Below are positions 1 through 64,000 of a DNA stretch of 64,000 bases, in pieces (the stretch's first letter is position 1; each line of letters starts with the position of its first letter). A program made the translations under genes and the position numbers. The stretch lies in assembly GCF_009914755.1 (NCBI RefSeq), contig NC_060926.1. One strand, written 5' to 3'. The stretch comes from the human T2T-CHM13v2.0 reference genome, Homo sapiens. The notes beneath the pieces are model-generated. The model saw only the letters and a list, made by a program, of their open reading frames with translations, made no database searches and was not told the origin of the DNA.

Positions 1-229
1 TGGCTCACTGCAACCTCCGACTCACTGGTTCAAGTGATTCTCCTGCCTCAGCCTCCCAAGTAGCTGGGATTACAGGCACGCACCACCATGCTCAGCTAAT
101 TTTTGTATTTTTAGTAGAGACAGGGTTTCTTCATGTTGGCCAGGGTGGTCTCTATCTCCTGTTCTCATGATCTGCCTGCCTTGGCCTCCCAAAGTGCTGG
201 GATTACAGTCGTGAACCACTGCGCCTGGT
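1..229 (-). mobile_element. Alu (partial, window edge)
   Basis: Alu consensus in antisense. Confidence 0.95.
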
Positions 230-257
230 CAGTTCTTCTTTTTTTAATAGGGGGATT

Positions 258-412
258 ATGAACAAATTATTTAGTCTCTAATATAGGCTTCATCTTTCTT
301 ATGGGGATAATAATACCTGTGTAAACTGGATTACATAAGGATTAAATAAGATAAAATATAAAGTATCAAGCGTAAAGTCAGAAAAAATATAAGTTCAATT
401 AATTTCAGTTTT
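258..412 (+). mobile_element. MIR fragment
   Basis: atggggataataatacct...aggattaaataagat MIR core. Confidence 0.55.
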
Positions 413-821
413 TTTCTTTCTTTTCCCAGATAGTTCATTTTGATAGGTTTACTCTGGCTTAGTTTTTTTTCTTTTGTTTTGTTTTGTAAATATACTTCTA
501 AGAGAACCCTCTAAATCATCCAAATGTCTTTTTAAAATTTTAATATTGTAAATCTGGTTATTATACATCAATAGTCTTTACTATCAGAAGAAAAAATAGA
601 GCCACAATAAATTTTGGCTCACGATCTGTTTATACCAATATGTTCACATGGTTAAATCACAAGAAATCATCAAATTAATATATTGTTGATGTTGCCTTTA
701 ATGTTTTACATATTCACATTTTTCATTTTCTTCTTGTGTACCCATTATCTTTGATTTTGACAACTTAAACCGGAAAGGTACAAAGATGATACGAAGCTGT
801 GGGTAAGAGAGTCATAGAGTC

Positions 822-1112
<291 letters not shown>

Positions 1113-1835
1113 AAGAGATTCATAGAGTCACACTCCGGGCAAGGATGAGAGAGCCAACCAAAAGCTGAGATGTCTCTCTCTCATACACATCCCATATACT
1201 GACTGAGGCCATAGATTGTGCTCCAGGCATGCACACACCAGAAAAGCTACAAGGATGCAAATATATAACAGGCTTACTATGCATTTTGTGCCAGAGAATG
1301 TCAGGGCAGCCAGCCAGTATATAGTTGTCTCTAAGTGACCTGTCTACAGGGTCTCATTTTGTTGGGGGTGAAATTATTTCCTTCTTTCGAAAGCCTGCAA
1401 GGAAAGCAAAGAAACTTCTGGTCTGATGGTGACTGCCAAATACTTTGTGGGTGAGAAAGAAAGCGAGATCCATGCATCCTCACCACTGGGAAGTCATTTC
1501 TGGCAGGATGCAGTTAATTTATTGCTTGAAGAAATGATCAATAAAAATGGCAGAACTTGAGCTGCTCTTGCTTGGAGGCAGGTAGTGTGTTAAAGCTCAC
1601 TGGGCAGGTCAGGCAACCGAGGCTCCATTGACTTAAGAGACTTGCTTGAGGTTATAGAATTTGTGAAGATGAGCGGTGGGGCCTGGCTCCAATGTGCTGC
1701 TCTTCCAAATGTACCATGATATATAGCAGCTTTCTCCTTAGACATGAGTCCCTGTTCTTTGAGCACATTAGGTCTGAAAAATTCCATCTTAGATTGGCAC
1801 AGAGAGGGGAAAATCAGAATGAAAAGTATTACTCT

Positions 1836-2127
1836 TTTTTTATTTTTTGAGACGGAGTCTCGCTCTGTCGCCAGGCTGGAGTGCAGTGGCGCGATCTCGG
1901 CTCCCTGCAACCTCTGACTCCCTGGTTCAAACGATTCTCCTGCCTCAGCCTCCTGAGTAGCTGGGATTACAGGCACATGCCACCACGTCCAGCTAATTTT
2001 TGTATTTTTATTAGAGACGGGGTTTCACCCTGTTGGCCAGGATGGTCTTGATCTCTTGACCTCATGATCCACCAGCCTTGGCCTCCCAGAGAGCTGGGAT
2101 TACAGGCATGAGCCACTGTGCCTGGCT
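1836..2127 (-). mobile_element. AluS (AluSc-like)
   Basis: Full dimer; TSD gaaaagtattactct / gaaaatcattactct. Confidence 0.95.
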
Positions 2128-2589
2128 GAAAATCATTACTCTTATGACATGCATTGGAGAAAAGAAGCCATTGTAGTTGATGTTATGTGTGAAGACAGCC
2201 AAATCTTCTCTGGGGCAAGGAATGCCCACTAGCCAGTTAATCCTTCTCCACTTTTCTTCAAAGAGAGGGAGGGGGAATCTAGAAACCGATTCAAGGGATT
2301 GGCACCTACTGAACCAGTTTAGCGGGAAGGGGCATTCTGCTTGCCTAAGCTGAATTCCAGTGCACGTGATTTCACTTGGGTGGTGTCTTTGCTGTCACTT
2401 CTCCCTTTACAGGCCTAACCTCAAAACATTCCCTTACCGACCCCTCTCCCCTAAGCAAAATACACAGGCAAAAGGTTTTTGTTGTTACTATACAGGCAAA
2501 TTATTATTATACAGGTGATATCACAGGCAAAATGTTTTTGTTGTTATTATACCCAGCATCATATAACGGAAGGATGGTGTGTGAATCCA

Positions 2590-2927
2590 CTCTGAGGTGA
2601 CCTCACAGATGCCCCTTCAGGACCTGGAAGGGGAATTACCCTTGGCCAAGGCCACACTCCTCTCTGGAGGCAGCCCCCATCAATGGCTGGTCCTGGAAGG
2701 AAGAAGGATAAAAGGCAGCCCCAGGCAGTTCAGAGCTCCCTGTATAATTGGCCGAGACTGCATCTACATCATAGTTCAGCGCCTCCTCTCCCTGCCTGTC
2801 TGTCCTGCCCCAGCTCCCTCACAGGTGCCTGCTTCTGAGAAGATCCTCCTAACCACTCCCGGTAGAAACCTTCCACATGCAAATGTCATCATCTTAGGGT
2901 CTGTTTCCCAGGGAATGTGACCCGCAG
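2590..2927 (+). mobile_element. ERVL LTR (LTR16-like)
   Basis: 3' end catgcaaat...cttagggtctgtttcccagggaa resembles the LTR16 terminus. Confidence 0.5.
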
Positions 2928-3043
2928 CAGAAGGTAATTTGGGTAGTGCTACATGCTACTTTGTAACAAGCTCATTTTTACTAATTACGGCATGAGTAGG
3001 TGGTGCTTGAACTCAGCAGGGACAGATAAATAGTTTTGATTCA

Positions 3044-3412
<369 letters not shown>

Positions 3413-3434
3413 CTATATCTGCAGGAATTTGATG

Positions 3435-3628
3435 GAAGTTCCTCTGCCCCCAGCCATGGCAGTGCTGGACCATAGCCCTCAGCATGGAGAGCATGGAAGG
3501 CAGGAGCAGAGCGGAGGTGGCTTCCTGTGGGCAGCTTGTGCCTGAGGGTGACTGAAGAAGGCCCGATTCTTTGTCCTAAACACATCATTGTGTACATTGC
3601 TGCACCTTCCCATGGCGGGGCTGGAGTT
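3435..3628 (-). pseudogene. Candidate decayed dynein heavy chain exon (AAA5-AAA6 linker region)
   Basis: MGRCSNVHNDV ... KLPQE ... LSMLRAM (with frameshifts) vs recalled DNAH9 MEEFSNLDRDI...KLPQEW...LCMLRAM. Position is collinear with the upstream relics. Confidence 0.4.
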
Positions 3629-3779
3629 TGGGGGAAATGAAGTGGAGAGGAGCCCAGGAGTGTTCTGCTGGGCAGCTTCCTACCTGTGGAAGATGGCATA
3701 AAGAGTGGGGGGACATTCTGTCCCTCACAGATAGCAATTCCCTTAGGAGATTGTATCTCTTTCTTGGGAATTCGGTCCT

Positions 3780-3945
3780 CAGCAAATTGATTTCACAGAT
3801 ATTATTAAGTGCCTATTCAATGACATACATTATTTTGGGGGATTCAGAAATGAACAAAACAGGCAAAATCCCTGCTCTCATGGAGGTTACAATCTAGTGG
3901 GAAACACAGAGAGTAAATGAGAAAAGCAAGTAAAATATGTTGGGG
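3780..3945 (-). mobile_element. L2 fragment
   Basis: aaaatccctgctctcatggag...atctagtggg L2 motif. Confidence 0.6.
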
Positions 3946-4540
3946 GATGGATAGCTATCAGTGATCTATTACAACCCCAAAGTGGGAAAGAGGAAATGAG
4001 GAATTATGAGGAATGGCATCAAAAAGGGACACAATAAAAGCCTCCATCTGTTTGGGTAGAATAGGGAATAGGGAGTTAATATTTGCCACTCAAACTGTGC
4101 TTCAATTTCAGTTGTCCTTTCTGCTGACACTTGTAACACACTTCTCTCTCCCAGCTCCCCTACATCCAAATCCTGCAAGACCCTTATTGCTTTTGTGAAC
4201 TTGAGCTCTCTCTGCAACCCTCTAGCCCATCCTCTGTAGGCTCAGTCACAGTTAATGACCTTGACTGTAGCCTTGAAGATACGGACATTCCAGGTGCTCT
4301 GCCCTGGCAGGAGTTCAGCATTCCTTTCTGTCCACAGTTTTGCTCTTTGGCCTACTTCAGTGCTGATCCAGCTGGCTGTGACTCCCCACCAGATGTGAAG
4401 GGACTTGCACCACCTGAATCTGGTTAGAAGCTGGCTCACATAGCCAGGCTTGTAGTTTCAGCTTTGCTACTGTCATGTGAACCCTGGGCCAGAAGATTCT
4501 GTTGACACCTGGAAACTAGGAATGGTTTGGCGGTGTCCTG

Positions 4541-5110
4541 ATATGGTGGATATTTATTGTTTTGTGTTTCTGGTACTCCTACTACTTTCTGGGAATAACA
4601 CTCCCTTTATTTGGGGGAGCTGTTCTTGCTACCCAATGTGAACCAAATGAGTAATTTGTATTTTACATGACCCCACTTGTCTGTACAAAGTGTTTGATCC
4701 AAAGGTAGGCCCCTGGCCAAGCTGAGCTAATCATGGGAGCCCCTGTTCTGGCCACAGTGACATGTGTCTAATGCATGACTCAGAACACACCAATCACTCC
4801 CCTGGGATTTCAACAACTAAACCTGCGGGGAGAAAACGTTTTTCCCTTGAGGAAAAGCTGGCAGATATAAGCCAGTAGCTGTAGCAGCCATGTCTGACTT
4901 CTGTGAGAAAACCAAGCCGTGGTTAGGGGAGAAGAAAGCCGATCCACAGAGAGAGGCAGAGACAAGAGAGTCGGAGAGAGTCTGAGTCCCCGGCTCCAGG
5001 TGTCTCAGTCACGCTCCTGCTCTTCAGGGACTTAGGTCAGTACATTCCAATTTTTTCCTTACCTAGGTCAAGTAGGTCAGGTCAGATTCCAGTCATGACT
5101 ATTAAACATT
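4541..5110 (+). mobile_element. Old ERVL LTR (LTR33-like)
   Basis: Start tatggtggatatt...ttctgggaataacactccc and the LTR33-like 3' end. Confidence 0.45.
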
Positions 5111-5207
5111 GAGTCATGGCAACTATATTTGGGAAGACCCAGAGGGTTCAAGTGAGCATCCCCATGTCTTCTACCTGCCCATCTTTGGAAGATTACTTCT
5201 TCCATGA

Positions 5208-5517
<310 letters not shown>

Positions 5518-5900
5518 CCTCCTCCTTCCTTCCTTCGTTCCCACATAGCGCTTCGGTTCTGCTTCTCTCATGGTACTAGTAATCCTTAGTGTACTTGCTG
5601 GTTTAACCATTTGTCCCCACCAAGAAGGTAGAAATTGGTTCTTATTCTTATTCGTATTCTCTAAGTTGGGCATGGAGATGCTTAGTATGTGTTTGTTGGA
5701 TGAAAGGATAAACAGATAGATGGATGGATAAGTATCATTACCATTAAGTGGGTGCCTCTGTGTGTCAATCCTTTAATAAAGATGTCAAAAGCCCAGAGAC
5801 TCTCTGGGGACTGAATTAATTCTGGGGCTTTGGAGGGGTTCTGAAAAGGCCTGGGGAATGTGAATTCCCCTGGAACTACTCTGGAGTTGCCACAGGGTGA

Positions 5901-6293
<393 letters not shown>

Positions 6294-6604
6294 GAGTAGT
6301 GTTTCTTCTGAGGCTTAGGATGCCAGCTTGGGGAACTCCAAACTTGGGCATTATGTGGTGGCAAAGCACCTCAATCCACAGAGACACCCAACATTGCCAT
6401 GGCAAGTTAGACATAGCAGGGAAGACTGGGCTTTCCCTGATTTGCTCTTGAGTTCTCACTTTTCCCTCCAAACCTCCCAGAAGGGACTGGGGCTCCATTC
6501 CCTGGGGTCATTCGTAGCCACACTGCCTCTCCTTAGCCATTTTCTCTTAGCACAGTCATTCTTACTGGTATAAGTGTTTCCCCAAACTGCTTCCTTGATC
6601 TTAA

Positions 6605-6626
6605 TCTCTCTGTCTCTCTGTCTCTG

Positions 6627-6661
<35 letters not shown>

Positions 6662-6684
6662 GTCACACACACACACACACACAC
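6605..6684. repeat. Compound (TC/TCTG)n-(CA)n microsatellite
   Basis: Directly visible. Confidence 0.9.
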
Positions 6685-7477
6685 CATTTATGGCATTAGC
6701 TACTTTCTACCTGGCATTTTAGTCATTCTTTTCCATGGAGACTATGTGTTTTTTGAGGACAACTACTGTATTTTCTTCATCTTTGCAGCCCCTAGGGTGC
6801 TCAGCACAGTGCCCGAAAGAAACGGAGTTACATGTTTTTGAATAAACTCTCTGTTCTCACATTTAGGTTTCTCTAATTGCTTTAATTCAGGTTATCTACA
6901 TAGGTTTCTACATAGGGATTCTCTTAAGAATATATTGTGAACAGCTCTCTTTTGCTGATATGGACGTTTCTCCAAATTTATTTTTCATGCTGACAGATTG
7001 TTTTCTGGTCTGAATGTACTGCCATTTATTTTCCCAATTCCCTAGTGCTGGAGCTTCTGGGTGCATCCAACATTTATAATTATTAACTGTGCTGCTGCGA
7101 GCCACCTTGCTAGACCTTTGTGTAATCCATCTTTGCTTTCTTAGGATAAATTCTTAGAATGGAATCTACATTTTAAAATCTTTTGACATGTCCTGACAAA
7201 CACCGTTCCCCATAGCCTTCAATGTGGGCAGCTTTTATAGCTTTCCTCATAGCCATTATTCCATCAATAGGTAACATTGACAGACTTCAGCGAATGGAAT
7301 CCTCCAGCCCTTTACCCTGATCCTTTCTCCGAGTTACATATTTTGTGGTTTCAAGACCATCTTGAAATCATTGAGAAACAAAGACACAGGAAAAGTTTTT
7401 TAAAGCGAGGAAAAGTAGAAAAACCTTTAGAGGTCTTCACAGGGATAGCATAGAAACCATGTAGTTGATATTTTGTC

Positions 7478-9402: not shown

Positions 9403-9729
<327 letters not shown>

Positions 9730-17895: not shown

Positions 17896-19811
17896 TATTT
17901 CTAGATATCATTATTATTTCCCTGCCATGAAGTAGGACTTTTCTCAAATCTTTCTAAAACCACAGCCACTAACATTTTTCCTTCCTTTTCAGAGAGTCAC
18001 AGCAAATTTCTTATTCATGTTTTCACTTATAGAATCGTCTCAAAATTCTTCAATGTCAGAGCTAAAGGGTGTATGGGAACCATTGTTCTAGTTATCAGAT
18101 GGGTGAATTAGGGCCCGAAGCATGTATTGAGGAGGCCATTCCATGGCAGAGAGGTGTCCAGATAATGCGAAAAGCCACCTGAGTCCCATACCCACGTTCC
18201 ACCTTCTAGAGTGTGCAGCCTCCGTTCCTAGTTGGTAATCTCTTCCCTGCAATTAAATTCATTTGATGGTGCATCTTAAATCAACTTTAATTGGACACTT
18301 GCTGTGCTTTAAAAATACTACTTTTCCTTGTCTATGTAAGTTTCTTTGCACGCTATCACTTTTTTTTTTAAGCAGAAGAATTTGTATGTGTAGTATGTGT
18401 GTGTGTGTGTGTTAGAGTAAAACAGTCTGTAAAATTATTATCTGGAGGCAAGAGTTCTTTTTCCAGTTACTTGGTTAACTTTACCTGTTGATAGCCTGGG
18501 ACACATTGTAAATATTTTTCAACCCCATGTAAAGAACTATCTTAATTAAGTGCAATGCATCCTTTAGAACTTCAATGAGCTGTAAAATCAGCTCTTCACC
18601 TTCAAATGCCTGATATAGCTAATTTCACGCGATATGCCAGCAACAGGCAGCCATAAGGTAGAAACCAGAACAGAGTGCTAGAAATAGAGACAAAAGTTTT
18701 ATGTTGCTTTAAACAACAAAACAAGACAAAAAACAACTTTCCCTCTTTACTCTCAGTTTTATATGGCAAACTGGGTATCATTTGACCTCTGACTTTTATT
18801 CCTCTTATTTTGTATTCCAGATGATTCTGGGTACAAATAACAGAAGCACAAAAAAGGCTACTCTGATTAATAATTTTTGCTTTCTAAAGAATGTATGCAT
18901 CAAAATGTGGGTGGAAATTTAAAGGCCACAGTAGACCTATTAGCACTGTATGTTCACTGGAGGAGGATTGATTGGAGCTAACTGCATGAGTTATGCGTAG
19001 AACATTATCCTTGAGTGGAGTTATATGTATGTCCTGAATATTATGCTTTGTTACAGTTTATTGGCCTTGATTCTACTTGTGAGGCCAGAGTATATTGCTC
19101 AGTTTTAGGGGAGCATTAACTATTTCAATCTGCCCTGATGAATCATAAAGCAAGGAAATAGACAGCACTGGATTTTTCTGGATTTTTACGTACACATTAG
19201 GACCCACTGCTTGAGTCTCTAGGGGCCTTTATGCATTCAGAAATCCCCAAATGACAAGGTGAAATCATGCCTAGGTGACAGTAGCCAATAGGTCCCAGAC
19301 AAATCTTCAATCAATCACATCCAGCTGGAAACAAAACTCCTTCCCAATAAAATATTCCCAGCTAAGGTTTGAGTCAAGAAGAGAATCTTGCATTCAAACT
19401 AGGATGCCCCTCTGCTCACATTTTGCAAAGGTACTTCCATTTCCCACAGATCATTTTTTTTTTAAACAGACTCAGGTATTCTAGCCGGGATGGTTTTGAA
19501 AGCATAACGTGCTGTCTGTTGTCTAGAAAGATGATGTGCGTGCCCCACTGCCAGAAGGGCATGCTCTTTGAATTGCTTTTGCTGCAGTGGGAAAAGGAGT
19601 TTCTCTAATTCATCCACACATTCTCTTCTATTGTCTCTGGGCCTGTGGAGGCCCCTAGTGAAGACTGGGGAACACGAAATAAGGCTGCGGCTCCTTGGAG
19701 AGGTTCCTGGGGGCAGAGATTTGGGTGGCTCTCGAGAAATAGCAGAATGTTCAAGGAAGAACAATCTGGAGAAACTGGGATAGGTAAGAAGCTGCACAAT
19801 CATGTTTACAT

Positions 19812-22165: not shown

Positions 22166-22331
22166 CTTCATTCTGACTTGTATGACTGCCCTGGGCTGTT
22201 TCCAGTTTCTCCAGTGGGAAAGTGCTCCCAAGGAAATTACCTTGCACAGAGGAAAGGCAGATGAAGAACTCATCTCCTAGCTGAATTTTCAACTCGATTT
22301 TCAAATCATTTTCCTTCTTGGTGAGCACAGA
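22166..22331 (-). pseudogene. Decayed dynein heavy chain exon (AAA5 buttress/strut coiled coil)
   Basis: SVLTKKENDLKIELKIQLGDEFFICLSSVQGNFLGSTFPLEKLETA vs recalled DNAH11 [45 protein letters not shown] and DNAH9 [43 protein letters not shown]. Acceptor tttattgctgtttcaa| has AG>AA; frameshift near the 3' end; donor AAG|gttaaa. Confidence 0.8.
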
Positions 22332-23489
22332 TTGAAACAGCAATAAAGACTTTTCAAACTTACAATGTCAGTCTTGTCAACAGAGAAAGCATGCATCACT
22401 GCCCTTCCAACTTGATCATCTCAAGGAGTTTCACTGATTTCACGGCTTCTGTAATTCAATCCCCAGTCAGCTATCCAAAGGGAAATAAAGTGTTATTTTG
22501 CCTTATTGTTGACATGGCTATAGGAAACTAGAGAAATAACTGTTTGTAGAGTTATTTGGAATTAGTGGACCAGGATTAATACCTATTAGGAAACTGGCAT
22601 AAAAGCAACTCGCTCAGAGAGCAGAGAAAGCCCAGCTGGTGGGTGGGAGGTCCCATGGCAACTCCTGTCCCAGGGGAGCAATTTTGCTTTTTACTTTGGT
22701 GACATCATATAAATTCAAAGTGACAAACTTCTCTTAAGGACTTTCCAAATTATTTACCCTCTATTAAGAGCTTAGCTCTCCTCTCATTACTTGTAGAAAT
22801 CATTTAAAGTGATCTCAAACCAGATTTCAAACTGTTATTGAGGACTTGAAAGCTGATAAGAAAAATCACTTAAAGTTTCCAATAACTTGTTTATACCTCT
22901 TATTTCCTTATACCCTTGCACAACTGACCAAAAATAAAAAAGAAAGTGGAAAAAATGGCTACACACATCAAAAAATAATGATAATAAAAGCAAAAAGTAA
23001 CCAGATTAGAGAGATTATATTAGGAAGATAAGGGCAAAAAGGACTATGAGAAAGGTGGAAGGGGTAGGGGAGCAGGAAACAGAGGTAAAAGAATGTTAGA
23101 AAACAGAGACCTATTACTGAATAAGAGATGATTCCATTTCAGAACCATAACCAAAATATGAGAAGTACTAGTCATATCTCAAGTCTTTGCTCACCATGAA
23201 GTCACTCTTTGTAAACATATCCTCAAGGGAAGAAAAGCAATCTAGTACGGCCAACCACTAATCCACAGACTCTGTAATCCAGAATATTAATCCCTAATCC
23301 AGAACACTGTGTGTGTTGGTAGTGGGGAAGGGTTATTCAACAAGGACAACCATATGGATGTATGGGAATTAAGGGTCATAATCCCAAGGAATATGTTGTA
23401 CCTTCAAGGGGCTTATAGTCTGTGTCACTGAACACTGGAAAATAAGTGGCATCCAGCTAGATCCAATGTTTGCTTTTTAGTCACTGTAT

Positions 23490-27427: not shown

Positions 27428-27598
27428 TTGACGGGTTAGTTATGGCAATGTGGTTTCTCAACAGGCTGCATGGGGGTCTGGCTTGCAAAGGAGCTCGCAT
27501 ATAAAGTGAAAGCTGCTCAGGAGAGCCAGGTCTCCCCACAGGCGTCCTGTGTTCACAGTCCTCGTAAATGTTCTCTGGAGGCCACAGATTCATTATGT
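27428..27598 (-). pseudogene. Decayed dynein heavy chain exon, next after 28889-29023
   Basis: Reads CGETWLS*AAFTLYASSFASQ vs recalled DNAH11 [20 protein letters not shown]. Preceded by a pyrimidine tract (ttttctgtctgttgctctaccttttcc) without a good AG; ends at caa|gtaaat. ~171 nt, with in-frame stops. Confidence 0.6.
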
Positions 27599-27799
27599 CG
27601 GAAAAGGTAGAGCAACAGACAGAAAATGCTGGCAGAGGTCCAGCCCTCTGTGGGCTTCGAGTGTGGTATTGCCTAGAGTTTGTTCCTACAGGTATTTTTG
27701 CATAAAGACCTCTGTCTGAGGAAGTGAGTCTAAGACAGCAGAGCTCAGGACGGTCTTTTAGAGTATTGGGTGCCCACGACTCTTTTGAAAGAAGTCCAT

Positions 27800-29700
27800 T
27801 GATACTCCTCTACTATTTCCCCCGATCTATTTGAGAGCCAGCAAACTGATTTGATAAAACAGTGATAGATTTGTCAGATTAAGATAGTAATTTGCTTCCA
27901 TTAATTTGAGAGGCATCAGTGTCTCACAGTGAGAAGAAATATGGCCACCCTGGTGGGATACATTTAAATTCATTAAATTTTCTGGCTTTCATCTGAGACA
28001 CTGAGACTTTTTCTTCTCAGCCCATAAATCCTTTCAGTTTTTACTTCAAATGGCACCAAACAAGCACTCATCAATTTATATTTTAAATTCTCCTAACAAT
28101 ATCCAGTTGGATAAATCTGTTTAATTAGCAGTGGGTTGATGCTTTCTTGGCCCACTCTACGTCCAGTTACCAAAATAAAAGAAAGGCATGGAAAGCTGCT
28201 GGTTGCAAAAAAACATGCCTCCTACAATGGCAGGGAACAAGAAGAGACATTCTCCCAACACATGTTAACCCAGGGAAAAAATTTGAATATATACAAAAGA
28301 TGAAATTAACAATAGATGAATGGCAAATGAGAAAGCTGCCAGTGACCAGACTTTCTCAGGAGCCAACCTTTAACAATATGGATTATTTCGGATAATTCAT
28401 GGTTTGCCACTCTTTATCCTTTGTCTCCTCTGTAATATCCAGGGCACATCTTAGACAGATAATTAGGGCATTATCATATTCCTTAACTAAGTCGGACAAA
28501 TTGCATTGCGCTTCGTGGAAAACCAACCTAGGGCTCTGTCATTAGCATTGTCTAATTGTTCCAAATAAAGTCTTTGCTTTTTTTTATTGCATCAACTTTA
28601 TTTGTCAATACTCAGGAAAGAGCGGCTGTTCCCTTTCCTGTAGGGTTTCGTGAATATGCTAGTCACTAGGTAATCTTACAGTTAATACAGGCCGCAGCAT
28701 GGTAAAATGTAAGAAAATGTAAAGGTCAAAAACATGTTTCTATTATGAAAAAAATGAATGATAATGACATAATTTTTTCAGCTCATCAGGCTCTTTGCTA
28801 AGTGCTGCTGTTATTGCCAGATCAGTAGTGTATAACAAAGAAGTGCTTTCTGCAGCCTGCTTCATTAGTCTGCCCTGTAGGACCTCACCTCCAGACCTTT
28901 CACTAATCTGTTGGCGCGCTCAATAGTCTTGTTAGTTCTATTCACTTCTTCCTGACAGCGGATTTTCTCAGCTGTAGCCCTCCCAGAGGCCGTGGTTAAA
29001 GCAGCCAGGTTTGTGTCTAGTTCCTTTAAATAAAAACAGTGAGAGACAACTTTGGACATTGTCGGAACAAGTAAAAATATCGCCGCAGACTTATTTTATA
29101 TTGCAGAAACTTAAATTATACAGTATGCCCAGAAGTAAACACAATTGCGTTCAGGAGACTGTGCCAATTCACACAATGAGAAGGTGCAGTAGGGAAAATG
29201 TGAAGAAAAGGATATTCGACAGTTTATGTAATTTTTGTTGTTTGTTCAAAACAGCACCGAGGTGGGAAAAAGAACATACAGACAAATTCAAAATCCTAGG
29301 GGGAAATGGAGAATGTCATTTTCCCAGACAAATTACCTGAAGTCATGAAGATTTAATACAATTGATTTTTATGTACCATTAGTGCCAATAACACACTTAA
29401 TACAAAGTGTCCCAAAACATTTTGCATTGAGAGCTGCCGCCAAAATGAAATGTAGGGGAAGCTTTTAAGGTGAGATTTGAAGAGCTGCGGCATATTGGTG
29501 TATTGACTGCTCAGAGGGAGGGAGCCAGGGCTGGGGAGCTGGGGCAGCGTGTGGCAGCAGAACTTCCTGCTGGGGGTGTGATGGGGAAAGGGGGCCAAGG
29601 AGATGGGGCTCTAATTGAGCCAGTTGCAATGGCGGTGGAGCTCACCAGGGATAAGTGGAAAGAATGGGTAGGGAAATGAAGGTTGTGAGTGTACATGTGT
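27800..29700. promoter_or_regulatory. Candidate conserved non-coding/enhancer block overlapping the dynein exon relic
   Basis: No recognisable repeat over ~2 kb, about 20 CpGs in 28380-29640 despite moderate GC, many TAAT/ATTA and ACAAT motifs. Confidence 0.4.
28889..29023 (-). pseudogene. Fossil exon of an unprocessed axonemal dynein heavy chain gene (DNAH11-like, stalk coiled-coil CC2 region)
   Basis: Minus strand: acceptor tgtttttatttaaag|GAA, 45 uninterrupted codons [45 protein letters not shown], donor GAG|gtgagg (phase 0-0). Aligns ungapped to recalled DNAH11 [45 protein letters not shown] (about 31/45 identical), so it is a paralogue and not DNAH11 itself. Confidence 0.9.
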
Positions 29701-39007: not shown

Positions 39008-39216
39008 TTCTGTTCAAATGGTTGCTGTCCCTAAGTGGCTTAAAAACTCCCAGTGGGAAGGACAACAGCCTCTCTGAGGCAGAGTGGCCTCTGTCTGTGA
39101 GAAATATTCACCTACGGGTATGCTTTTCTGGCTTGCTTTATCGCTGGCTTTGCAACTTGGAGATGTAACGTAGCTTGAAATCAACTGTGTGTTTAGCCCT
39201 GCTTTGGTCAGCCTAC
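39008..39216 (-). pseudogene. Heavily decayed dynein heavy chain exon (stalk CC1)
   Basis: ctag|GTA GGC, then with frameshifts VG..KAGLNTQ..LR..ISKLQSQ.DKASQKSI..QTEATLPQRGC...LGTAT..LNR vs recalled DNAH11 VGDLKARLASQ..LR..ITKIGLQTEKVSREKTI..QTEVFQKQREC...LVAAT..LNR. Correct order relative to the other exons. Confidence 0.5.
39017..39185 (+). repeat. Unique-sequence direct duplication, copy A (copy B at 42211-42380)
   Basis: Manual alignment: 5 substitutions + 1 indel over ~170 bp. Confidence 0.95.
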
Positions 39217-41452: not shown

Positions 41453-41576
41453 CCGGAGCATTTTCAGGCCCTGAGAGGACACAGAGGCCTGAAACCTTTT
41501 CCTGCGTGGCCTGCAGCAGTTTAGACCTGTGTCAAGAGCTGTCAGAACTGGGATGTCTTACAACTGGTGTAGGGGA
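41453..41576 (+). repeat. Donor of the inverted copy at 44802-44928
   Basis: Reverse complement matches 44802-44928 (8 substitutions over a 109-bp core). Confidence 0.92.
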
Positions 41577-42210: not shown

Positions 42211-42380
42211 AATGGTTGCTGTCCCTAAGTGGTTTCAAAACTCCCAGTGGGAAGGACAACAGCCCTCTCAGAGGCAGAGTGGCCTCTCTCTGTGAGAAAT
42301 ATTCACCTACAGGTATGCTTTTCTGGCTTGCTTTATCGCTGGCTTTGCAACTTGGAGATGTAACGTAGCTTGAAATCAAC
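42211..42380 (+). repeat. Unique-sequence direct duplication, copy B
   Basis: Near-identical to 39017-39185. Confidence 0.95.
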
Positions 42381-42650
42381 CGTATGTGTATTGTATTTAT
42401 ATACATGTGTAGATACAGGGAGGATAAAGTCACATAAAATGTCTTCTTTGACCTCAAAGGGCTTAAAGTTTATTGTTTTGCAAATAGCGTATCGATATTT
42501 TGCTCAACACATTTATGTCATTAGAGTAAAATTAAAGCAAAATGATAAAAAGATCATTGAATGTAAGTAAAATCAGAATCCTAGCTTAGACTTCATGCAT
42601 ATTTAATGTACTACCATTAAATGATGAAGTTCATTAGGAGTTATAAATAC

Positions 42651-44801: not shown

Positions 44802-44928
44802 TCCCCTACATCCCAGTTGCAAGACATTCCAGTTCTGCCAGCTCTTGACACAGGTCTAAACTGCTGCGGGCCATGCAGAAAAGGGTTTCAGGCCTCTGTG
44901 TCCTCTCAGGGCCTGGAAATGTGCCCGG
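44802..44928 (-). repeat. Inverted copy of 41453-41576 inserted in L1MA
   Basis: Non-L1 sequence interrupting the L1MA 3'UTR. Confidence 0.92.
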
Positions 44929-50470: not shown

Positions 50471-51689
50471 TGTTCATTTATTCATCTACTGATCAAATTA
50501 TATTTTAGGTGGATTTTTCTGCATGCTATGGATAATAAGAGAGAGAGGGTGGCTACATTTGTATCATTTAGAGTTTAGTCGGGAGAGAGGCAGTGAACAA
50601 GTAACTAACCACATACACCATGCACAAGAACATTTCAGAGAGTGATAGATGTTACGGAGTAAAACGCCAGGGGATCAGGTGGGGTGTGGAAAAAGAGTGC
50701 TTTAGCTGGGGTAGTCAGGGAAGGTCTTTCTGTGATTCTCATGCAGTAGCTGTTTAGTTGGCTGAGTGAGGGCCTCAAAGGAGAATGGATGGTTAGTAGC
50801 GAAAAGCAAAACTACCCCTGCAAAGGCAATCTGCAAAGTCTGTAACAGAACATTCTTTTGCTTTCCTCATGAAATTAAATGCTGTCACTTATCTCAAAAC
50901 AGCTGTGGGTGGTTTTGTGCAAAAATTTTGGGATAGTTTCTGGGTTCTTCAGATGGTTTCCTTTGCCTAAGAATGATTTTCGGGGTGTGGGGATTAGTTC
51001 CTTATCAAGATTAACAAGGCATCGAGAGCCATCATATAGTCAGAAAAGGAAGTGCAGAGGGTTTAGTGAAACTTTCAGAGCTCTTCCAAGGACCACAAAT
51101 AGTAACCTAGTAAAATGGGTCAGAGTGTTGGGAGAGTGGCATCATACTCATATAGGTAAGCAGAGAGGTTAACAAAGAGTTAAAGCTAAAATCTCCACAA
51201 GAGGAAGCCGGAGAGGAACACCTTGTTCACCAAGCTGTCCAGCTCCCAACTCAATGGAGGGTAACTCCTGGCTGGCTGAGGTTTAATTTGTCCTGCTGGG
51301 TGTTCACAGTAGAAGCTTCTTGCTTGGCATATGGACATATGGGTCTGTTTACTTTGACTCTGGCTACTGGGTTTGTTGGGGGTACATACCAGTTCCTTGA
51401 TATGGTAGTGCCCCCACTCTCCCTATTACATTGTTTCACCAATTTACAAATCACACTGGCAGATTCTTCTTTAAAGAACATATTAAGAGCATGTGGAGAA
51501 ATGAAAATCTTAATGATCAATATAAGTTATTTAACAAGAGGGCTAATAAAAGACATCCAGGTAATATCCAAATAAGAAAAATGACAAGTAACTCAACAAT
51601 ATGTACTAGAAAGGGCACAGATCTGGGTATTAGCACCTTGGTTCTAGCTCTGCCACCTGTTAGCGGAGCAAGTAAATCGGGAAGAAAAC

Positions 51690-51915: not shown

Positions 51916-52099
51916 TATGTTTTCATTAGACTCAATACTGCCTTTGGTTACTTTTACATTTTCCCATGGGGCCATAATGTACACTCTCTAATGCTTTCTT
52001 CTAGTTCTAAAGTTTACTCATGGCTGCCTGAGGTTTTAGTTGAACCTAGAACTACTTCTAGTTCTAAAAATACTCCTCTGAGTATTTTAAAAATATTAA

Positions 52100-52568
52100 T
52101 AATCTGTTGGTTTAAAACACGTTCACAAGTTCTTTGACATTCCCTTAAAAGATAGAGCCTTATTTCCCTCCCCTTGAATGCAGCTGGGCTTAGCAACTTG
52201 CTTCTAATGAATGGAACAAGGTATAAATGGCAGCATGTGATCTTTAAAGCTAGGTTATAAAAGGCAATACTATTGATTCTTCTTTGCTTTTTCTTAGATT
52301 TCTTGTGTTCTGGGAAAGCTGGCCATGCTGTGAGGACACTCAAGCTGCCTAATGAGAGGTGCCTTTGGTGGGGAACCCAGGCCTCTTGTCAACAGCCATG
52401 TGAAGGAACCCCAGTTAAACCCTCACATGAGACTGCATCCTCGGCCAACATCTTGATCATGACCTCATGAATTTCTGACCCACAGAAACTGTGAACTTAT
52501 AAGCAATTGTTTTCTTAATCCACTAAGTTTGGGGTATTTTCTTACACAGCAACAAATAGCCAATACAA
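52100..52568 (+). mobile_element. MLT1E/F-like MaLR LTR
   Basis: atttccctccccttgaatgcagctgggcttag...ctaagtttggggt...cagcaacaaatagccaataca. Confidence 0.75.

Positions 52569-54994: not shown

Positions 54995-54998
<4 letters not shown>

Positions 54999-55054
<56 letters not shown>
54999..55054. repeat. (TA)n microsatellite
   Basis: About 28 perfect units. Confidence 0.95.
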
Positions 55055-55056
<2 letters not shown>

Positions 55057-56669: not shown

Positions 56670-56853
56670 GAGAGGGAGAAATGGAGAGTTTCTATTCAAT
56701 GGGTATAGCTGCCATTATGCAAGGTGATCAAGACTGAGAGATCTGCTCTACAACATTGTGCCTGTGGTTAGCATTATTACATTGTATATTTAAAATTTGT
56801 TAATAGCGTAGATTTCATGTTAAGTGTTCTTACCACAATAAAAAAATAAAAAA
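56670..56853 (+). mobile_element. L1MA9/10 3' end
   Basis: gagatctgctctacaacattgtgcct...gttaagtgttcttaccacaataaaaa. Confidence 0.8.
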
Positions 56854-57074
56854 AGACAGGTTCCATATAATATCAAATAACATTAGATTTGGTTGCAGAC
56901 CTGAGAGAAAATTTCTAACTCTGGATATGCATATTAAAAAATAAAAGTAAAAAGCTAAAGAGTAAAAATATAAATAAACCTTCAAATAAAGGTTCAGAAA
57001 AATAAAGCTCTGGAAAGCAGATTTGGATAAATGGACTTTATAAATCAGGAAATAGAATAAAATGTACAATAGAC

Positions 57075-57387
<313 letters not shown>

Positions 57388-58831
57388 TCAGGAAGTGCAG
57401 TCCAGGCAGAATGACAACAGATGCAAGGTAGGCCTGTGGCTAAAGCGAGGTGCCCTGGGTATCTCGGAGGGCTCATACTCTCTGCAAGGGAAGAGTAGTA
57501 AGAGAGGAGGTCAGAGACATGATGGGGGGAAGGGATCAGATTGCATGGAGCATGTGCCAGCTTGAGGAGGGCTTTGCAGGTCATTGCAAAGATTTGGCTT
57601 TTACCTTGTGTAAGATGGGAAGCCACTGGAGGGTCTGGAACAGAGATGAGACATACTCTTAGAAGGAACACTATGCCTGCTGTGTTGAGAGGAGACAGAA
57701 GAGGGACAAGATCGAGGGAGGGAGGCCAGCTGGGAAGCTCTTGCAATAATCCAGGTGAAAGCAGATAGTGACCTACACCTGGCTAGTAGTGCTGGCGATG
57801 GAGAAGAGAATCTGGCCAGAATTTGGATGTGTTGTGAAGGAAGAAGAAGAAGTGTTTGCCAATGGGCTGGAAGTGGGACATGAGGCAGAGAGGAGACAAG
57901 GGAGAGTCTAAGAACTTTGTCCTGAGCAACTGGAAGGTTGGAATAAATATTTACTCAGGTAGAGAAAACTGAGGGGTAGTTAGATTTGGTTTCAAATCAG
58001 GTTTTGGTTTTGTTCATGTCAGGGTTGAGATTCCTTTTAGACTTGAAAGCAGAGGTGTGGAATAAGCAGTTGGCTGTATGAGACTAGAATTCAGGGTTCT
58101 GAGCTCTAGTTCAGTTCTATTTTATACTGAAGTTAAAAAAATTTGAAACTCATCTGAAGCCATGAGACTGCATGAGATCTTTACAGGAATGTGTGTGAAT
58201 AGAGGAGAGAAAAGGCCAACAATACAAGAGGCATACCAATGTTCAGAGGTCAGAGAGATGAGCAAGGAGGTCAGGGAGATGAACAAGGAGAACATGGTGT
58301 CTGGGAGCCAAAGGCTGCAGTTATTGGCAATGGCAGGGTCTAGGTTTCACATGGTCTAGGTCTAGCGAAATAGTGGAACACTAGTTTGAAGATGATATTT
58401 TGCTAGACCTAGACCAACGACCATGTGAGTGAATGGCTGAGGTGGGCTGGAGGAAAAGGTCACTGGAGCAAAGGAGGACAAGGAGGTGAGTCTCGGGATG
58501 TTGGTTGACTCCAAAGTCAATGATGGGGCTTATGGCAGTAAGTCATAAGCTGACATCACCCATGACTCCATGAACCAGGAGGCAGCCAGCACACAGCAAT
58601 GAGAGGCTTGTGAGGCTGCATAGTTTGGTGATTGGCTTCAAAAAAGCTGGGGTTTTTGAAGGAGAAGATCAGACATTTGAGAAGTTACAAGGGGGCACCA
58701 GATGAGCATTTACCCCTCTCCCAGCCTTCAGGTGCTTGGGGAAGAGGAGAGGCAGTCTTTAGCTGAGAGGGCTGCTGGAAGTAGAATCCTCAGAGGACAG
58801 CCTGGCTTCCCTGGGCAGGAAGATACATTTA

Positions 58832-59319
58832 TTTTTAAATTTATTTTTATTTTAAATTTTTTTATTTTAAAATTTTATGGGTACTTAGTAAGTGTATATA
58901 TTTATGGGGTACATGAGATATTTTGATATAAGCATGTAATGCATAATAATCACATCAGAGTAAATGGGGTATCCATCCCTCAAGCATTTATCATTTCTTT
59001 GTGTTATAAACAATCCAATTATACTCTTTTAGCTATTTTAAAATGTACGATAAATTATTGTTGACTGTAGTTATCAAATCCTAGACCTTATTCATTCTAT
59101 CTAACATTTTTGTACTCATTAACCATCCCCACTCCCCTGCTCCGCTATACTTCCCAGCCTCTGTAACCATCATTCTGTCTCCCTGTGTTCAATTGTTTTA
59201 AGTTTTAGCTCCCATGAATGAGTAAGGACATGTGAAGTTTGTCTTTCTGTGCCTGGTTTATTTTGCTTAACATAATGTCCTCCAGTTCCATCATGTTGTT
59301 GTAAATGACAGGATCTCAT
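58832..59319 (-). mobile_element. 5'-truncated L1MA2/3
   Basis: gtgtatatatttatggggtacatgagatattttgata; perfect 15-bp TSD aggaagatacattta (58817-58831 / 59320-59334). Confidence 0.92.
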
Positions 59320-61941
59320 AGGAAGATACATTTAGAAGTGGAAAAAGGTGTAGGAAAGTTTGCTGATCAGTGAGTTCCTAAGGGTGCCATGGAAAAGCTT
59401 GGGAAGAGAGGAGGGTTTGTGTTAGATTAGATAATACCTGTCTGTTGAGAGATGATCTGCTGGTGACCCAGGTTAAAGTGTGTGTTGGGAGGGTGGGTAG
59501 CGGGAAGCAGCCACAAATGGCTGGTATTGGTATGAGGTATTTGAGATTAGTCCAGAGCAGTAAGGGGCAAGATCTCCGGGCAGCTGATCTAGCCTGAGGC
59601 TGGAGACGTCATGGCAGGAGGAAGACAAGATGATTGAAGACCCTCTTGAGGCTGGTCACACCCCATGGGTAGGGTGGTGGAGAGTAGAGTAAATCTCTCT
59701 ATGATAGCTAATTATAATATTGCTATAGTCATCACGGTTGAGGGAAATTTATCAGCAACTAGGCCACAGACTGAGAGAAGTTTATCTGCAACTAGGCCAA
59801 AGACGGATGAATTGCTTTTTGTCCCCACCCACTGACTATCCTAATAATTGTTGACAAACATGAACCAAACTTTTGCTGATAAAAAGAAGAAATATTCAGG
59901 GAAACCTGGAGAAAGAAAGAGGTGAGCATTTTACAAACTTCAGGAAATGGCCAGACCACTCTTTCCTTTAGTTTTCATGGTAACTGTTGGCCAGTAAAGT
60001 AGAGCTGCCCTGGGCTTCTGCGTCTGTCTTATCCCCATCAAGGGTCTACTGAGCGGGGAGATTCTAAAGGCTTATTTGACAACAAAAGGTTGGGATGGCC
60101 AAGAGTTGCTTCTTTTCCGTTTCTTTCCATTTACTTTCATTTTCAAGTCTCGTTCACTATGGCTATAGGACTCTATTGCTCATGAAGGGCAAAGGGGTCC
60201 TTCTCTGTTTTCATCATGTGGGTTTTCAGAAGGGCCCCTGGCCTGGCAGTTAGGAGGTAGGACCCAGTTCTGACTATTTTCCTTACCTCCCTTGTGACCT
60301 GAGCCAGGTCACTCATCCTCTGTAGACCTCAGTCGTTTCACCTGAGGTCCTTTTCACCTCTCACATCCTATGTCTTGAAGTTACTCGAGTCAGCAGGAAG
60401 TGAAGTAGAATCTGCAATGTCTTGGTACAAACTAAGGAGAGAGCACAGGATTTTAATTCAGAATAAGAAACTCGTTATTCACTCTAGGGTTAATCATTTT
60501 ATAGCAACTTGACTAAGTGACATCACTTCTCTGAATCCATTTAAAAATTGTATAAAACAGGTTGATATTTGCACTTTTCTTGGCTTCTTAAGAGAGATTT
60601 TGATACTATAAATAAGATTATTAGTAGGGACAAATATGGAAATGATAAAGATGCTTCCAAAATTCTTACAGGTACCATTAACTGGCATAATATCATTGAT
60701 TGTTGATTGAATTGGCAACCAATCAATCAGTAGTAAGCATCTATTTTTTCCATCAAAGTGTATTTATTGAGGGACAGGATTATGTTGGGGGAATATAGAT
60801 AAAGTAGAATAACATAGTAGTACCTCACAGCTGGGGTCACCGAAATGAGATAACTTGTTTAAGGTCATACACTACTAAGAAGTTAGGATTTGAACTTTGA
60901 TTTGTCTGCCCCAAGGTTGATGATCTTTCTAGTCAACCCCCAGCCCCTTCTCATATTTGTATGTTAAGTAAGTGGCAGGCACTGTGCTAGGAATTAGTGT
61001 TGTCCTGGCAGCATTTGGCACTGGAAATGGGATCTTATTTCAGCCAATCGTTAGTTGTCCCATGAATTAAAACTGGCTGTATTATTTTGATTCTTGGCTT
61101 AGTCTTAGAGCCTTATGATAAGAATTAGAAGCTGACATGACCAACTACAAGGGTTCTTCAGTGAACATTCATGTCCTGCAATAAAATGAGCATCAGGTGG
61201 TCTTTTCTCAGTGGGTGAGTGGTATTCCACATGTTCCTCTCACTGATAGCCTGTGGGAACATGGAAGTTAGAGCGTGAAGTAAAAAGTCAGGACAGCTAC
61301 AGAAAGCCTTGTCTGACCCAAATCTACCCTTATATGGGATATGTGGATATAAATATTCCACATAAATAATGTGCTTGTGTCATTCACTTACTTTTTGCTT
61401 TTTAAGAGAACCAGAATCACTGTGATTCATACTGAAACACAGACACACATGTATCCACACACAAACCCACACTATCATGTGGCCAAATTACCAACTGCCC
61501 AACCTTCATCTGACACTTGTGGAAAGAGAAATATGCGTTGTAGAGAGTTCCCAACTTGAAAGAGTCAATTGGTATAAATACGGGCTTCATGACCTCAAAT
61601 TCGCAGGGTTTATTTCGGGCAAAATTGTCTCTTTTTTATCAAGCAAGAAAGTAGAAAACAGTACAGTGTATCTGTTTAGATTCTGGCGTCTGAGGTCTTT
61701 GTGGACTTGAATGCTGATAGGGCGATAATGCATCTAAACATTTAACCCAAGGGCTGCCAGATAGTAAAATTGTAATTAATTTACTAATTTAATAATTTCT
61801 TGCATCTTCAAGTAGACTAAATAGCTTAATGACTTGGAGTAAACCAACTTAAGAAATTAGTGTCTTCTACTAACTATGGAGTTTTGGGGACAAGGATTCA
61901 TCTTTCTATCTCCAGTGCCTACAGTAGTGCCTGGAAGTGAA

Positions 61942-62700
61942 TTTTTTTTTTTTGTTTCTTATTTAGTTTTCATTTCATAATCACAAACTTAACTCTGCCA
62001 TCTAACTAGGCATGGAAGGGAACAAGGAAAACACGGAACCCAAAGGGAACTGCAGCGAGAGCACAAAGATTCTAGAATACTGCGAGCAGATGGGGTGGAG
62101 GGCTGCTCTCCTGAGCTGCAGAAGGAATGGTCCAGTGGTTAAGATAAAACACAAGTCAAACTTATTCGAGTTGTCCAAAGTCAGGAATGGTGACCTTCTT
62201 GCTGGTCTTGCCATTCCTGGACCCAAAGTGCTCCATGGCCTCCACAATATTCATGCCTTCTTTCACCTTGCCAATGACCACATGCTTGCTATCCAACCAC
62301 TCAGACTTGGCAGTGCAGATGAAAAACTGGGAACCATTTGTGTTGGGTCCAGCATTTGCCATGGACAATATGCCAGGACCTGTATGCTTCAGGATGAAGT
62401 TGTCATCATCAACTTTCTCCCCGTAGATTGACTTGCCACCAGTGCCATTATGGTGTGTGAAGTCACCACCATGACACATAAACCCTGGAATAATTCTGTG
62501 AAAGCAGCAACCCTTGTAACCAAATCTTTTCTCTCCAGTATTCAGAGCACAAAAGTTTTCTGCTGTCTTTGGAAACTTGTCTGCAAACAGCTCAAAAGAG
62601 ATGCGGCCCAAGGACTCACCGTCGACAGAGATGTGGAAGAACACGGTGGGGTTGACCATGGCTGGTAATACAGAGCTCCCGACGGCAGCATCTGCAAAGC
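61942..62700 (-). pseudogene. PPIAP66: Processed retrocopy of PPIA (cyclophilin A), with UTRs and poly(A)
   Basis: Intronless PPIA cDNA copy: 5'UTR gctttgcaga...gccATGG, 3'UTR, poly(T) at 61942-61953 on +, short TSD agtgaat (61936-61942 / 62705-62711). Inserted in an L2 3' end. The numbered symbol is from recollection, not verified. Confidence 0.95.
62162..62659 (-). CDS. Intact 165-aa cyclophilin A-like ORF of the PPIA retrocopy (coding status unknown)
   Basis: Full-length [11 protein letters not shown]...GQLE* with no stop or frameshift; about 21 substitutions vs recalled human PPIA; Kozak GCCATGG. Confidence 0.45.
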
Positions 62701-64000
62701 ACTCAGTGAATGTTTATGGAATAAAGTGGAGTCCTGTTCCCTCAACCTTGCTACTACTGTTTCCCACTTTCATTTTCCAGATAAATTCCCAGACAAGTTA
62801 GGGAGGGATGCTATGGAGAAACATACATTTCTCCAAATCCTTTGGTAGTAGAAAATAACCTTGGACACAGGTCTTCAATGAATTGGTATGTAATTATTCA
62901 ACATCTGAGTCAAAATGCAAACAGTAGCTCCAGTCTACACAGAGTAATCCGAATTAAATATAGCCCATATTTGTTGTGCTGACATCCATGTTGTTGAGAA
63001 CACGCATACATATGATGCAGCTCAAATAACATAGGGAGAACAATGGTTAAAGTCTAAGGCTCTTGGCTGCTCTAATGAGATGGGGAATGGGGAGTTTGGG
63101 CATGGAGGTGCTCATTATGTGAGAGATAATATTTCTATTCAGCATCATAGAGCATCCATTTCAGCCGAGATCTCACTCTGGGAGCTCCTTTTCCGTGCAA
63201 AATATAGAATATACGCATTCAGAGAGAATGCTTAGAGAGAGAGGGGAAAGCTCTAAGCCTGTAACGGTGGGAAAAAAGTCTTTCCTAGCTATAAGTAACT
63301 GGCAGCGATGTACAGTAGAGAACATTAGAGCAAATCTTGTGTTATAAATACAGTTGATAAGCAGACTGTCCTTTACTAGGACTTGAAGCTATTGCAGTCA
63401 GAGACTGAAAATTTCCTTCAAATCCTAATGAGGGCCATGGTACAAGGAAGCTTTGAGGGCTGAGAGCAGTAAAGGGTGCATAAGAGCACTTCACGTGAGC
63501 CTAAATGACAGATATGATAGAGGCCTTGGGTGGGAATCAGACAAGATTATTTCACAGCAGCTTAGGATTTCCATTTGTAGGAAACTGGGAACAGTGAGCA
63601 GAATCCCACCATTCAGCCTTGCTGTATTCACTTAGGCTCAAAATTTGGTGACTTAGAGTTCTTATATATTGTATCAGTCATTCCCCAACAATCCTATTCT
63701 TTAATTTTGTTTTCTTAAATTTTCGTTAAAGAACTATCATCATGTATTCTTACGCTTAAGAGATAAATGCTGAAGTATTTAGAGGCAAAGTGTCAGATGT
63801 TTGTAGATTACTGTCAAGTTGTACACACACAGAGACAAAGCAAATATGATTGCCGTCTTTTGAACTATAATTCTTCTTCTCACTTTTTATATGTTAAAAA
63901 ATCTCATACTAAAAAGTAGAAAGAGAAAACCACATCTGATATTGGTACAGATAGATATCTAGACTAAGTGCACCTCACTTATCTATTTTCATCAAGATTT

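What the first reader, a model, noticed from the sequence alone, without database searches (positions are those of the whole stretch)
1..64000. Synteny hypothesis: the relic is the ohnologue of DNAH11 in a CDCA7-SP3 paralogon
Known: human DNAH11 lies between SP4 and CDCA7L (tail-to-tail with CDCA7L) on 7p15, and SP3 and CDCA7 are their paralogues on 2q31. My unverified recollection places a JPT1 pseudogene and a PPIA pseudogene just distal to CDCA7. Inferred: a minus-strand DNAH11-like gene here would be tail-to-tail with CDCA7, mirroring DNAH11/CDCA7L. That would make it a whole-genome-duplication copy lost in the lineage to humans, and possibly still intact in other vertebrates.
Basis: inference. 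Interest (0 to 1): 0.7.

Follow-up and report, generated by a model that had tools for sequence, protein, structure and literature searches.

The report
Fossil cilia-motor gene beside human SP3
Human chromosome 2 carries the decayed exons of a roughly 500-kb cilia motor (dynein) gene whose closest full-length relatives are in sharks, bony fishes, amphibians and lizards; it is likely the twin of DNAH11 from an early vertebrate genome doubling, and one exon is so well preserved that it may now be a regulatory element.

Summary
The relic is real. At least 20 exon remnants of an axonemal beta dynein heavy chain lie in protein order on the minus strand across about 495 kb between SP3 and CDCA7; three are in the window. 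The order SP3 > relic >< CDCA7 mirrors SP4 > DNAH11 >< CDCA7L. The relic is not a copy of DNAH11. It groups with a second vertebrate clade (dnah9l / DHC4D, often labelled 'DNAH11-like') that is full-length in sharks, bony fishes, amphibians and lizards. I found no full-length member named from mammals, birds, turtles or crocodilians; sheep, pigeon, turtle and alligator gave only scattered-exon predictions. Part of this is in print: Dong et al. (PMC2831330) reported the paralogon and one remnant outside the window, but read it as debris from just after genome duplication. Not found in my searches: the gene-length relic, its identity with dnah9l, and its late, likely repeated, loss. The stalk exon (28889-29023) keeps 38 of 41 constrained residues against 52% for the others, which suggests continuing constraint. 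I could not inspect gene order in other vertebrates.

The parts
1..64000 (-). The whole window lies inside the relic, which runs from window place -37218 to at least 458004. Outside the window: six 3' remnants at -37218..-14034 (aa 3920-4368), eight at 64371..198875 (aa 2460-3222), two AAA1-region remnants at 282249..288148, and a tail remnant at 457843..458004 (likely the one published by Dong et al.). Flanks: CDCA7 zinc-finger exons at -57496..-56495 (+), SP3 large exon at 531193..532560 (-, name recalled).
28889..29023 (-). Stalk (CC2) exon remnant, 135 nt, open frame, AG/GT intact; the best-preserved remnant found
   Evidence: 38 of 41 constrained residues kept; 3' boundary shared with human DNAH11, not DNAH9 or DNAH17
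22191..22337 (-). Exon remnant downstream of the stalk (reference P0020 aa 3612-3659), 25 of 48 identical to the clade majority; starts 27 bp from exon 3 of the predicted lncRNA LOC105373744 on the same strand
50920..51018 (-). Weak exon remnant (aa 3235-3266), in protein order
   Evidence: score 100; 0 of 21 control tiles reach it; no Pfam match
27478..27540 (-). Borderline remnant of the exon after the stalk exon (aa 3388-3407); touches the RefSeq enhancer 27537-27606, and its missing 5' part would lie under it
   Evidence: score 81; 7 of 120 control tiles reach it; enhancer from the hub table
18418..18474 (-). Borderline remnant (aa 3850-3868), in protein order
   Evidence: score 86; 1 of 21 control tiles reaches it

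Best explanation
The window lies inside a decayed, intron-spaced dynein heavy chain gene on the minus strand between SP3 and CDCA7, which groups with dnah9l/DHC4D and is likely the twin of DNAH11 made by the first vertebrate genome doubling. Shown: the remnants, their order and lesions, the mirrored neighbourhood, and the tree position. Inferred: the two genes arose when the SP-DNAH-CDCA7 block was doubled (HoxA- and HoxD-bearing copies, assigned to 1R); both were kept as outer-arm beta heavy chains through sharks, bony fishes, amphibians and lizards; the HoxD-side copy died before the placental radiation and, likely separately, in turtles, crocodilians and birds. It eroded in place instead of being deleted, probably because the interval holds regulatory DNA for SP3 or CDCA7. 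The stalk exon is likely still under constraint at the DNA level, most plausibly as a cis-regulatory element; that function is untested.
For: 17 of 18 strong minus-strand peaks in protein order, 0 of 20000 shuffles, plus 3 more towards SP3. 11 of the 17 carry a stop or frameshift. 47 chosen full-length proteins split into two clades, each running from sharks to lizards, with ten species in both. Relic identity is 47-52% to the dnah9l clade and 37-44% to true DNAH11; at clade-diagnostic columns it has the dnah9l residue 17 times, the DNAH11 residue 5 times, another 19 times. Realigned with each profile, dnah9l scores higher at 16 of 17 remnants, tie at 1. ML tree: relic inside the dnah9l clade (SH-aLRT 100), beside lizards (91.8). 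AU test rejects placement with DNAH11, DNAH9 or DNAH17 (p at most 1.2e-4). The stalk exon ends at the same codon as in DNAH11, not as in DNAH9 or DNAH17. Mirrored gene order on C2 and C7. The paralogon is in print.
Against: Gene order around the intact orthologue was not inspected in any other vertebrate. No lamprey, hagfish, tunicate or amphioxus sequence was in my trees, so the upper age bound rests on the literature. Kollmar states that no dynein duplication is related to a known genome duplication. The relic row was aligned with the dnah9l profile and sits on a long branch (1.13); the AU test used 5000 replicates, under the advised 10000, and did not reject placement with amphibian dnah9l (p 0.107). 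Absence in mammals, birds, turtles and crocodilians rests on the best 120 of 1649 hits and 15 short hits; proteins of 2001-3311 aa were not searched with a dnah9l-type query. Most of window places 204,000-477,000 was searched only with three Pfam models, and PF08393 found nothing there. At four-fold sites the stalk exon matches human DNAH11 at only 4 of 13, so any DNA-level constraint is not shared with DNAH11.
Confidence: 0.88

Rival explanations
1. The DNAH11/dnah9l pair comes from a local or segmental duplication in early chordates or vertebrates, not from a genome doubling.
For: Kollmar's statement that no dynein duplication matches a known genome duplication and that DHC4-beta duplicated at the origin of chordates and after the amphioxus split.
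Against: Both flanking genes are duplicated in the same order and orientation; Dong et al. report that both blocks align to one lamprey region; CDCA7 and CDCA7L share one ohnologue id in the supplement of PMC7530604; the word 'synten' does not occur in Kollmar's main text.
Confidence: 0.06
2. Dong et al.'s reading: a lone exon left when the duplicate was lost soon after the early genome duplications.
For: Published prediction; the tail remnant is among the better-preserved ones.
Against: At least 20 remnants survive; full-length members of the same clade exist from sharks to lizards; the relic branches with tetrapod members; decay of the non-stalk remnants is about 0.3 substitutions per site (rough, biased low). 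Part of their 1.2-kb chain appears to be an Alu-to-Alu match.
Confidence: 0.02
3. A mammalian duplicate of DNAH11, DNAH9 or DNAH17 that later decayed.
For: DNAH11 is the nearest intact human gene (67% over 46 residues of the stalk exon).
Against: AU p at most 1.2e-4 for all such placements; lizard, turtle, pigeon and alligator pieces are 83-97% identical to the stalk exon; third positions against DNAH11 are saturated.
Confidence: 0.01
4. On the stalk exon only: it is kept because it is still spliced into a transcript or short peptide, not because it is a regulatory element.
For: Open 45-codon frame with both splice sites intact; sheep gene predictions use it.
Against: No annotated transcript covers it (hub table); the three changes at constrained columns are radical; the alligator prediction and one unnamed record read it through a frame change.
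Confidence: 0.15

Closest known systems
dnah9l (zebrafish) / DHC4D (Kollmar 2016, PMC5100056) / database 'DNAH11-like'
   Same: Same clade by tree, identity and diagnostic residues; coelacanth and gar members carry the name 'dynein, axonemal, heavy polypeptide 9 like'. Kollmar's Fig. S7 text lists vertebrate DHC4D for Xenopus and six teleosts next to vertebrate DHC4A (topology not visible; equating DHC4D with dnah9l is my inference).
   Different: The human locus is decayed and has no row in the hub's RefSeq table for the window; no mammalian DHC4D label appears among the 28 places in that supplement.
SP3/SP4 'ancient regulatory coding exon' of Dong et al. (PMC2831330)
   Same: Same paralogon, same idea of a lost DNAH11 paralogue; their remnant is likely my most 5' one.
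   Different: One exon about 394 kb beyond the window, read as lost soon after 2R; here a gene-length relic, lost late, with a living orthologue.
Bystander exon erosion creating gene deserts (PMC7530604)
   Same: A large neighbour of a developmental regulator eroded in place, leaving a desert.
   Different: They place most such losses early in vertebrate evolution, list SP3 with OLA1, and have no 'dnah' in the main text (only 2 of 5 'dnah' places in the supplement seen).
Human DNAH11
   Same: Nearest intact human gene; same neighbourhood layout and stalk-exon boundary.
   Different: Separate clade since before sharks; intact.

Membership tests
dnah9l / DHC4D orthologue | Falls inside the clade in a tree with DNAH11, DNAH9, DNAH17 | tested here: met
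dnah9l / DHC4D orthologue | Clade-diagnostic residues | tested here: met
   17 vs 5, 19 other; 16 of 17 remnants by profile score
dnah9l / DHC4D orthologue | Intact gene lies between SP3 and CDCA7 in other vertebrates | not testable with these tools
   no other vertebrate genome offered (no relatives held)
Unitary pseudogene | Disabling lesions | tested here: met
   11 of 17 remnants carry a stop or frameshift; only 765 residues recovered over aa 2460-4368
Unitary pseudogene | No intact copy elsewhere in the human genome | tested here: met
   stalk exon finds only itself and three loci on C7 and C17 (4 of 4 candidates scored)
Unitary pseudogene | Exon-intron layout in place, not a processed copy | tested here: met
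   remnants spread over about 495 kb in order; splice sites at the stalk exon
Vertebrate ohnologue pair (DNAH11 / dnah9l) | Paralogous flanking genes in the same order and orientation | tested here: met
Vertebrate ohnologue pair (DNAH11 / dnah9l) | Split older than sharks vs bony fishes | tested here: met
   both clades hold cartilaginous fishes; Pristiophorus has one of each
Vertebrate ohnologue pair (DNAH11 / dnah9l) | Split younger than tunicates and amphioxus | tested here: inconclusive
   only the label order of Kollmar's figure was readable
Exon-derived regulatory element (stalk exon) | Conservation above the rest of the dead gene | tested here: met
   38 of 41 vs 52%, Fisher p 1.1e-7; heterogeneity p 1.2e-6
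Exon-derived regulatory element (stalk exon) | Constraint independent of reading frame | tested here: inconclusive
   frame changes in two protein predictions; no orthologous DNA available
Exon-derived regulatory element (stalk exon) | Enhancer activity or contact with a target promoter | not testable with these tools
   the annotated enhancer is 1283 bp away, not over this exon

The most novel reading that the evidence does not exclude
A fourth vertebrate outer-arm beta dynein, DNAH11's 1R twin, was lost at least twice in amniotes (mammals; turtles, crocodilians and birds), and each time the same few exons were kept because they double as enhancers in the SP3-CDCA7 landscape. The pigeon prediction keeps four pieces, three of which match human remnants (stalk, 163547, -28860).
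Probability: 0.35. Interest if true: 0.68.

Novelty: new member of a known kind. Interest (0 to 1): 0.5.

Why it matters
It would add a lost cilia motor to the human genome's fossil record and correct two published statements: that this remnant dates from just after the early genome duplications, and that no dynein duplication comes from one. It would tell zebrafish and frog cilia researchers that dnah9l has no working human orthologue and that many fish and shark proteins named 'DNAH11' are this other gene. Zebrafish embryos express dnah9l only in the otic vesicle, so the loss gives a testable handle on how motile cilia of the ear changed in amniotes (speculative). It also names a specific 135-bp candidate regulatory element.

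Tried and rejected
HMMER with a full-length dnah9l-clade profile found six distinct remnants and none in three control orientations, fewer than the frameshift-aware search. A whole-genome search with the 1892-aa lizard protein scored only 25 of 335 candidates and missed the relic, so it says nothing on absence. PF08393 gave no match in the interval. One strong peak (-27205..-27391, A-rich, out of order) was dropped from the chain, and shoulders of strong peaks were masked before counting. A candidate at 63743-63841 was rejected as noise (score 73); one at -13200..-13277 is plausible but not counted. Ancient shared DNA constraint between the stalk exon and DNAH11 was tested and not found. No Rfam match in the window. 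A larger bootstrap tree did not finish; a 24-row tree replaced it. The overlap of surviving exons between human, pigeon and turtle is suggestive only: those proteins were found through the stalk exon, and I ran no test on it. No structure or complex prediction was run: nothing here is expected to fold.
Full report
What is in the sequence. An open reading stretch at 28868-29095 (minus) reads like a dynein stalk, and its 3' part matches DNAH17 and DNAH9 chains in the PDB. A search of the whole genome with PF12777 placed a match at window 28823-29032 among the other dynein loci. The exon is 28889-29023: 135 nt, AG before, GT after, no stop. Its 3' end falls at the same codon as in the C7 gene (DNAH11), whereas the two C17 genes (DNAH9, DNAH17) end the exon about 5 and 6 codons earlier. 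These human gene names are recalled from position.

Extent. I searched chr2:173,850,001-174,114,000 (window plus 200 kb of flanks). tblastn with ten full-length relatives gave nine remnants. A frameshift-aware profile alignment gave 18 independent minus-strand peaks scoring 100 or more, of which 17 run in protein order from window place 198875 to -37218; no shuffle of 20000 exceeded a chain of 11, and the plus strand's best score was 107. Eleven of the 17 have a stop or frameshift. Three lie in the window: 50920-51018 (weak), 28889-29023 and 22191-22337. Two more in the window are borderline: 27478-27540 (7 of 120 control tiles as good) and 18418-18474 (1 of 21). Beyond 174.114 Mb I read only about 22 kb; Pfam searches found three more remnants at C2:174.192, 174.198 and 174.368 Mb, all minus and in order. 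The relic therefore spans at least window places -37218 to 458004, about 495 kb.

Neighbourhood. On C2, CDCA7 exons are at 173.852 Mb (+) and an Sp-type exon at 174.441 Mb (-). On C7 the Sp paralogue is at 21.566 Mb (+), dynein exons run from 21.696 to 22.038 Mb (+), and the CDCA7 paralogue is at 22.039-22.041 Mb (-).

Which gene. The stalk exon's best protein hits were a sheep prediction (93%), lizard (83%), and turtle, pigeon and alligator predictions (84-97%), against 63% for turtle DNAH11 (15 hits of 51 candidates, 98-2000 aa). Full-length relatives of the lizard protein are named 'DNAH11-like', 'DNAH11' or 'heavy polypeptide 9 like' and come from lizards, amphibians, lungfish, coelacanth, ray-finned fishes and cartilaginous fishes; none of the best 120 of 1649 shows a mammal, bird, turtle or crocodilian name (two rows show no species). 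A second search gathered true DNAH11 (best 120 of 1033). I chose 47 of the 236 long proteins to cover the taxa; they form two clades, each from sharks to lizards, with ten species in both. The 765 recovered relic residues are 47-52% identical to the first clade and 37-44% to DNAH11. In a 24-row ML tree with human DNAH9 and DNAH17 exons, the relic sits in the first clade beside lizards; placements with DNAH11, DNAH9, DNAH17 or the outgroup stem are rejected, placement with amphibian members is not. Because the relic was aligned with that clade's profile, I rescored each remnant with both profiles: 16 of 17 favour it, one ties.

Losses. The sheep, pigeon, turtle and alligator hits are short predictions that stitch together exons from far apart in the protein or run into unrelated sequence, as expected for relics, though poor annotation cannot be excluded. 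Human and sheep share one radical change in the stalk exon. The 16 non-stalk remnants keep 52% of constrained residues, roughly 0.3 substitutions per site and biased low; from recall that exceeds the human branch since the placental ancestor, so the loss likely predates it. As lizards keep the gene, relics in mammals and in turtles, crocodilians and birds imply at least two losses (inference). Monotremes, marsupials and snakes are unresolved.

Uneven decay. The stalk exon keeps 38 of 41 constrained residues (Fisher p 1.1e-7 against the rest); the remnants at 186791 and -28860 keep 84% and 78%. The pigeon prediction retains pieces matching the stalk, 163547 and -28860 remnants, plus a fourth, less conserved piece (aa 3532-3625 of the Pogona protein) that I did not compare with the human remnants. 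Frame changes in the alligator prediction and in one unnamed record argue against a protein role; the open frame and intact splice sites in human argue for caution. Against DNAH11 the exon's silent sites are saturated. I favour a cis-regulatory role at about even odds; nothing here tests it.

What is in print. Dong et al. (PMC2831330; passages and section 24 read, supplement unreadable) report the SP3-CDCA7 / SP4-CDCA7L paralogy and one non-coding remnant of a DNAH11 exon, predicted to be left from rediploidization after 2R. My alignment of the DNAH11 tail-exon region with the 174.368 Mb remnant gives a chain of 1184 and 1089 bp, close to their 1195 and 1101 bp, so it is likely the same element; 235 bp of that chain is an Alu-type repeat match and 117 bp the exon. 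Kollmar (PMC5100056; passages, section 19, supplement searches and part 3 of 5) lists vertebrate DHC4D in Xenopus and teleosts and states that no dynein duplication relates to a known genome duplication. PMC6008050 (passages) lists dnah9l as a third zebrafish beta heavy chain, detected in embryos only in the otic vesicle. PMC10972751 (passages) assigns the HoxA/HoxD split to 1R; PMC7269912 (passages) puts both on high-retention alpha segments and warns of prolonged exchange between these chromosomes; linkage of the two blocks to HOXA and HOXD is recalled. PMC7530604 (passages, first supplement hits) describes bystander erosion. Ten full-text searches (listings only unless named above) found no paper linking the human interval to dnah9l or describing the gene-length relic; 'dnah9l' occurs in 4 papers, 3 listed. 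Subscription journals, bioRxiv supplements and Ensembl/GENCODE or UCSC tracks were not seen and may record it.

Verdict. The hypothesis is supported. The kind of thing is known (a unitary pseudogene of an ohnologue), and the paralogon with one remnant is published. The gene-length relic, its identity with dnah9l, the late and likely repeated loss, and the constrained stalk exon were not found in print. Interest 0.5.

Noticed in passing
G000:C12:97534049-97534234 (+) and C12:97804411-97804533 (+) (L041, L042): Two dynein-like pieces, each listed with a stop, 270 kb apart and in protein order, far from any other dynein locus. The second matches single-headed inner-arm chains best (DNAH3, DNAH12). 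Possibly a second lost dynein gene; annotation not checked.
   Followed up: partly
proteins P0028, P0044, P0046-P0048, P0109, P0115, P0242: Many fish and shark proteins named 'dynein axonemal heavy chain 11' fall in the dnah9l clade, while some true DNAH11 proteins of sharks and paddlefish are named 'DNAH11-like'.
   Followed up: partly
L043:563-797 vs L040:3213-3447: The longest aligned block of what appears to be the published 1.2-kb 'ancient' chain is a match between two Alu-type repeats (23-24 hits each in the window).
   Followed up: yes
window 27478-27606: The RefSeq enhancer 27537-27606 lies where the exon after the stalk exon would be; the remnant is borderline.
   Followed up: partly
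window 22364-22470: Exon 3 of the predicted lncRNA LOC105373744 ends 27 bp before the 22191-22337 remnant on the same strand.
   Followed up: no
window 39017-39195 and 42211-42390; 41459-41576 and 44802-44921: Two local duplicates: 180 bp direct at 95%, and 120 bp inverted at 92%; no other copy in the 264 kb searched.
   Followed up: partly
G000:C13:88.566 Mb; C8:43.952, C9:87.558, C6:27.138 Mb: A broken SP3-like copy and three CDCA7-family copies, two with stops, probably processed pseudogenes.
   Followed up: no
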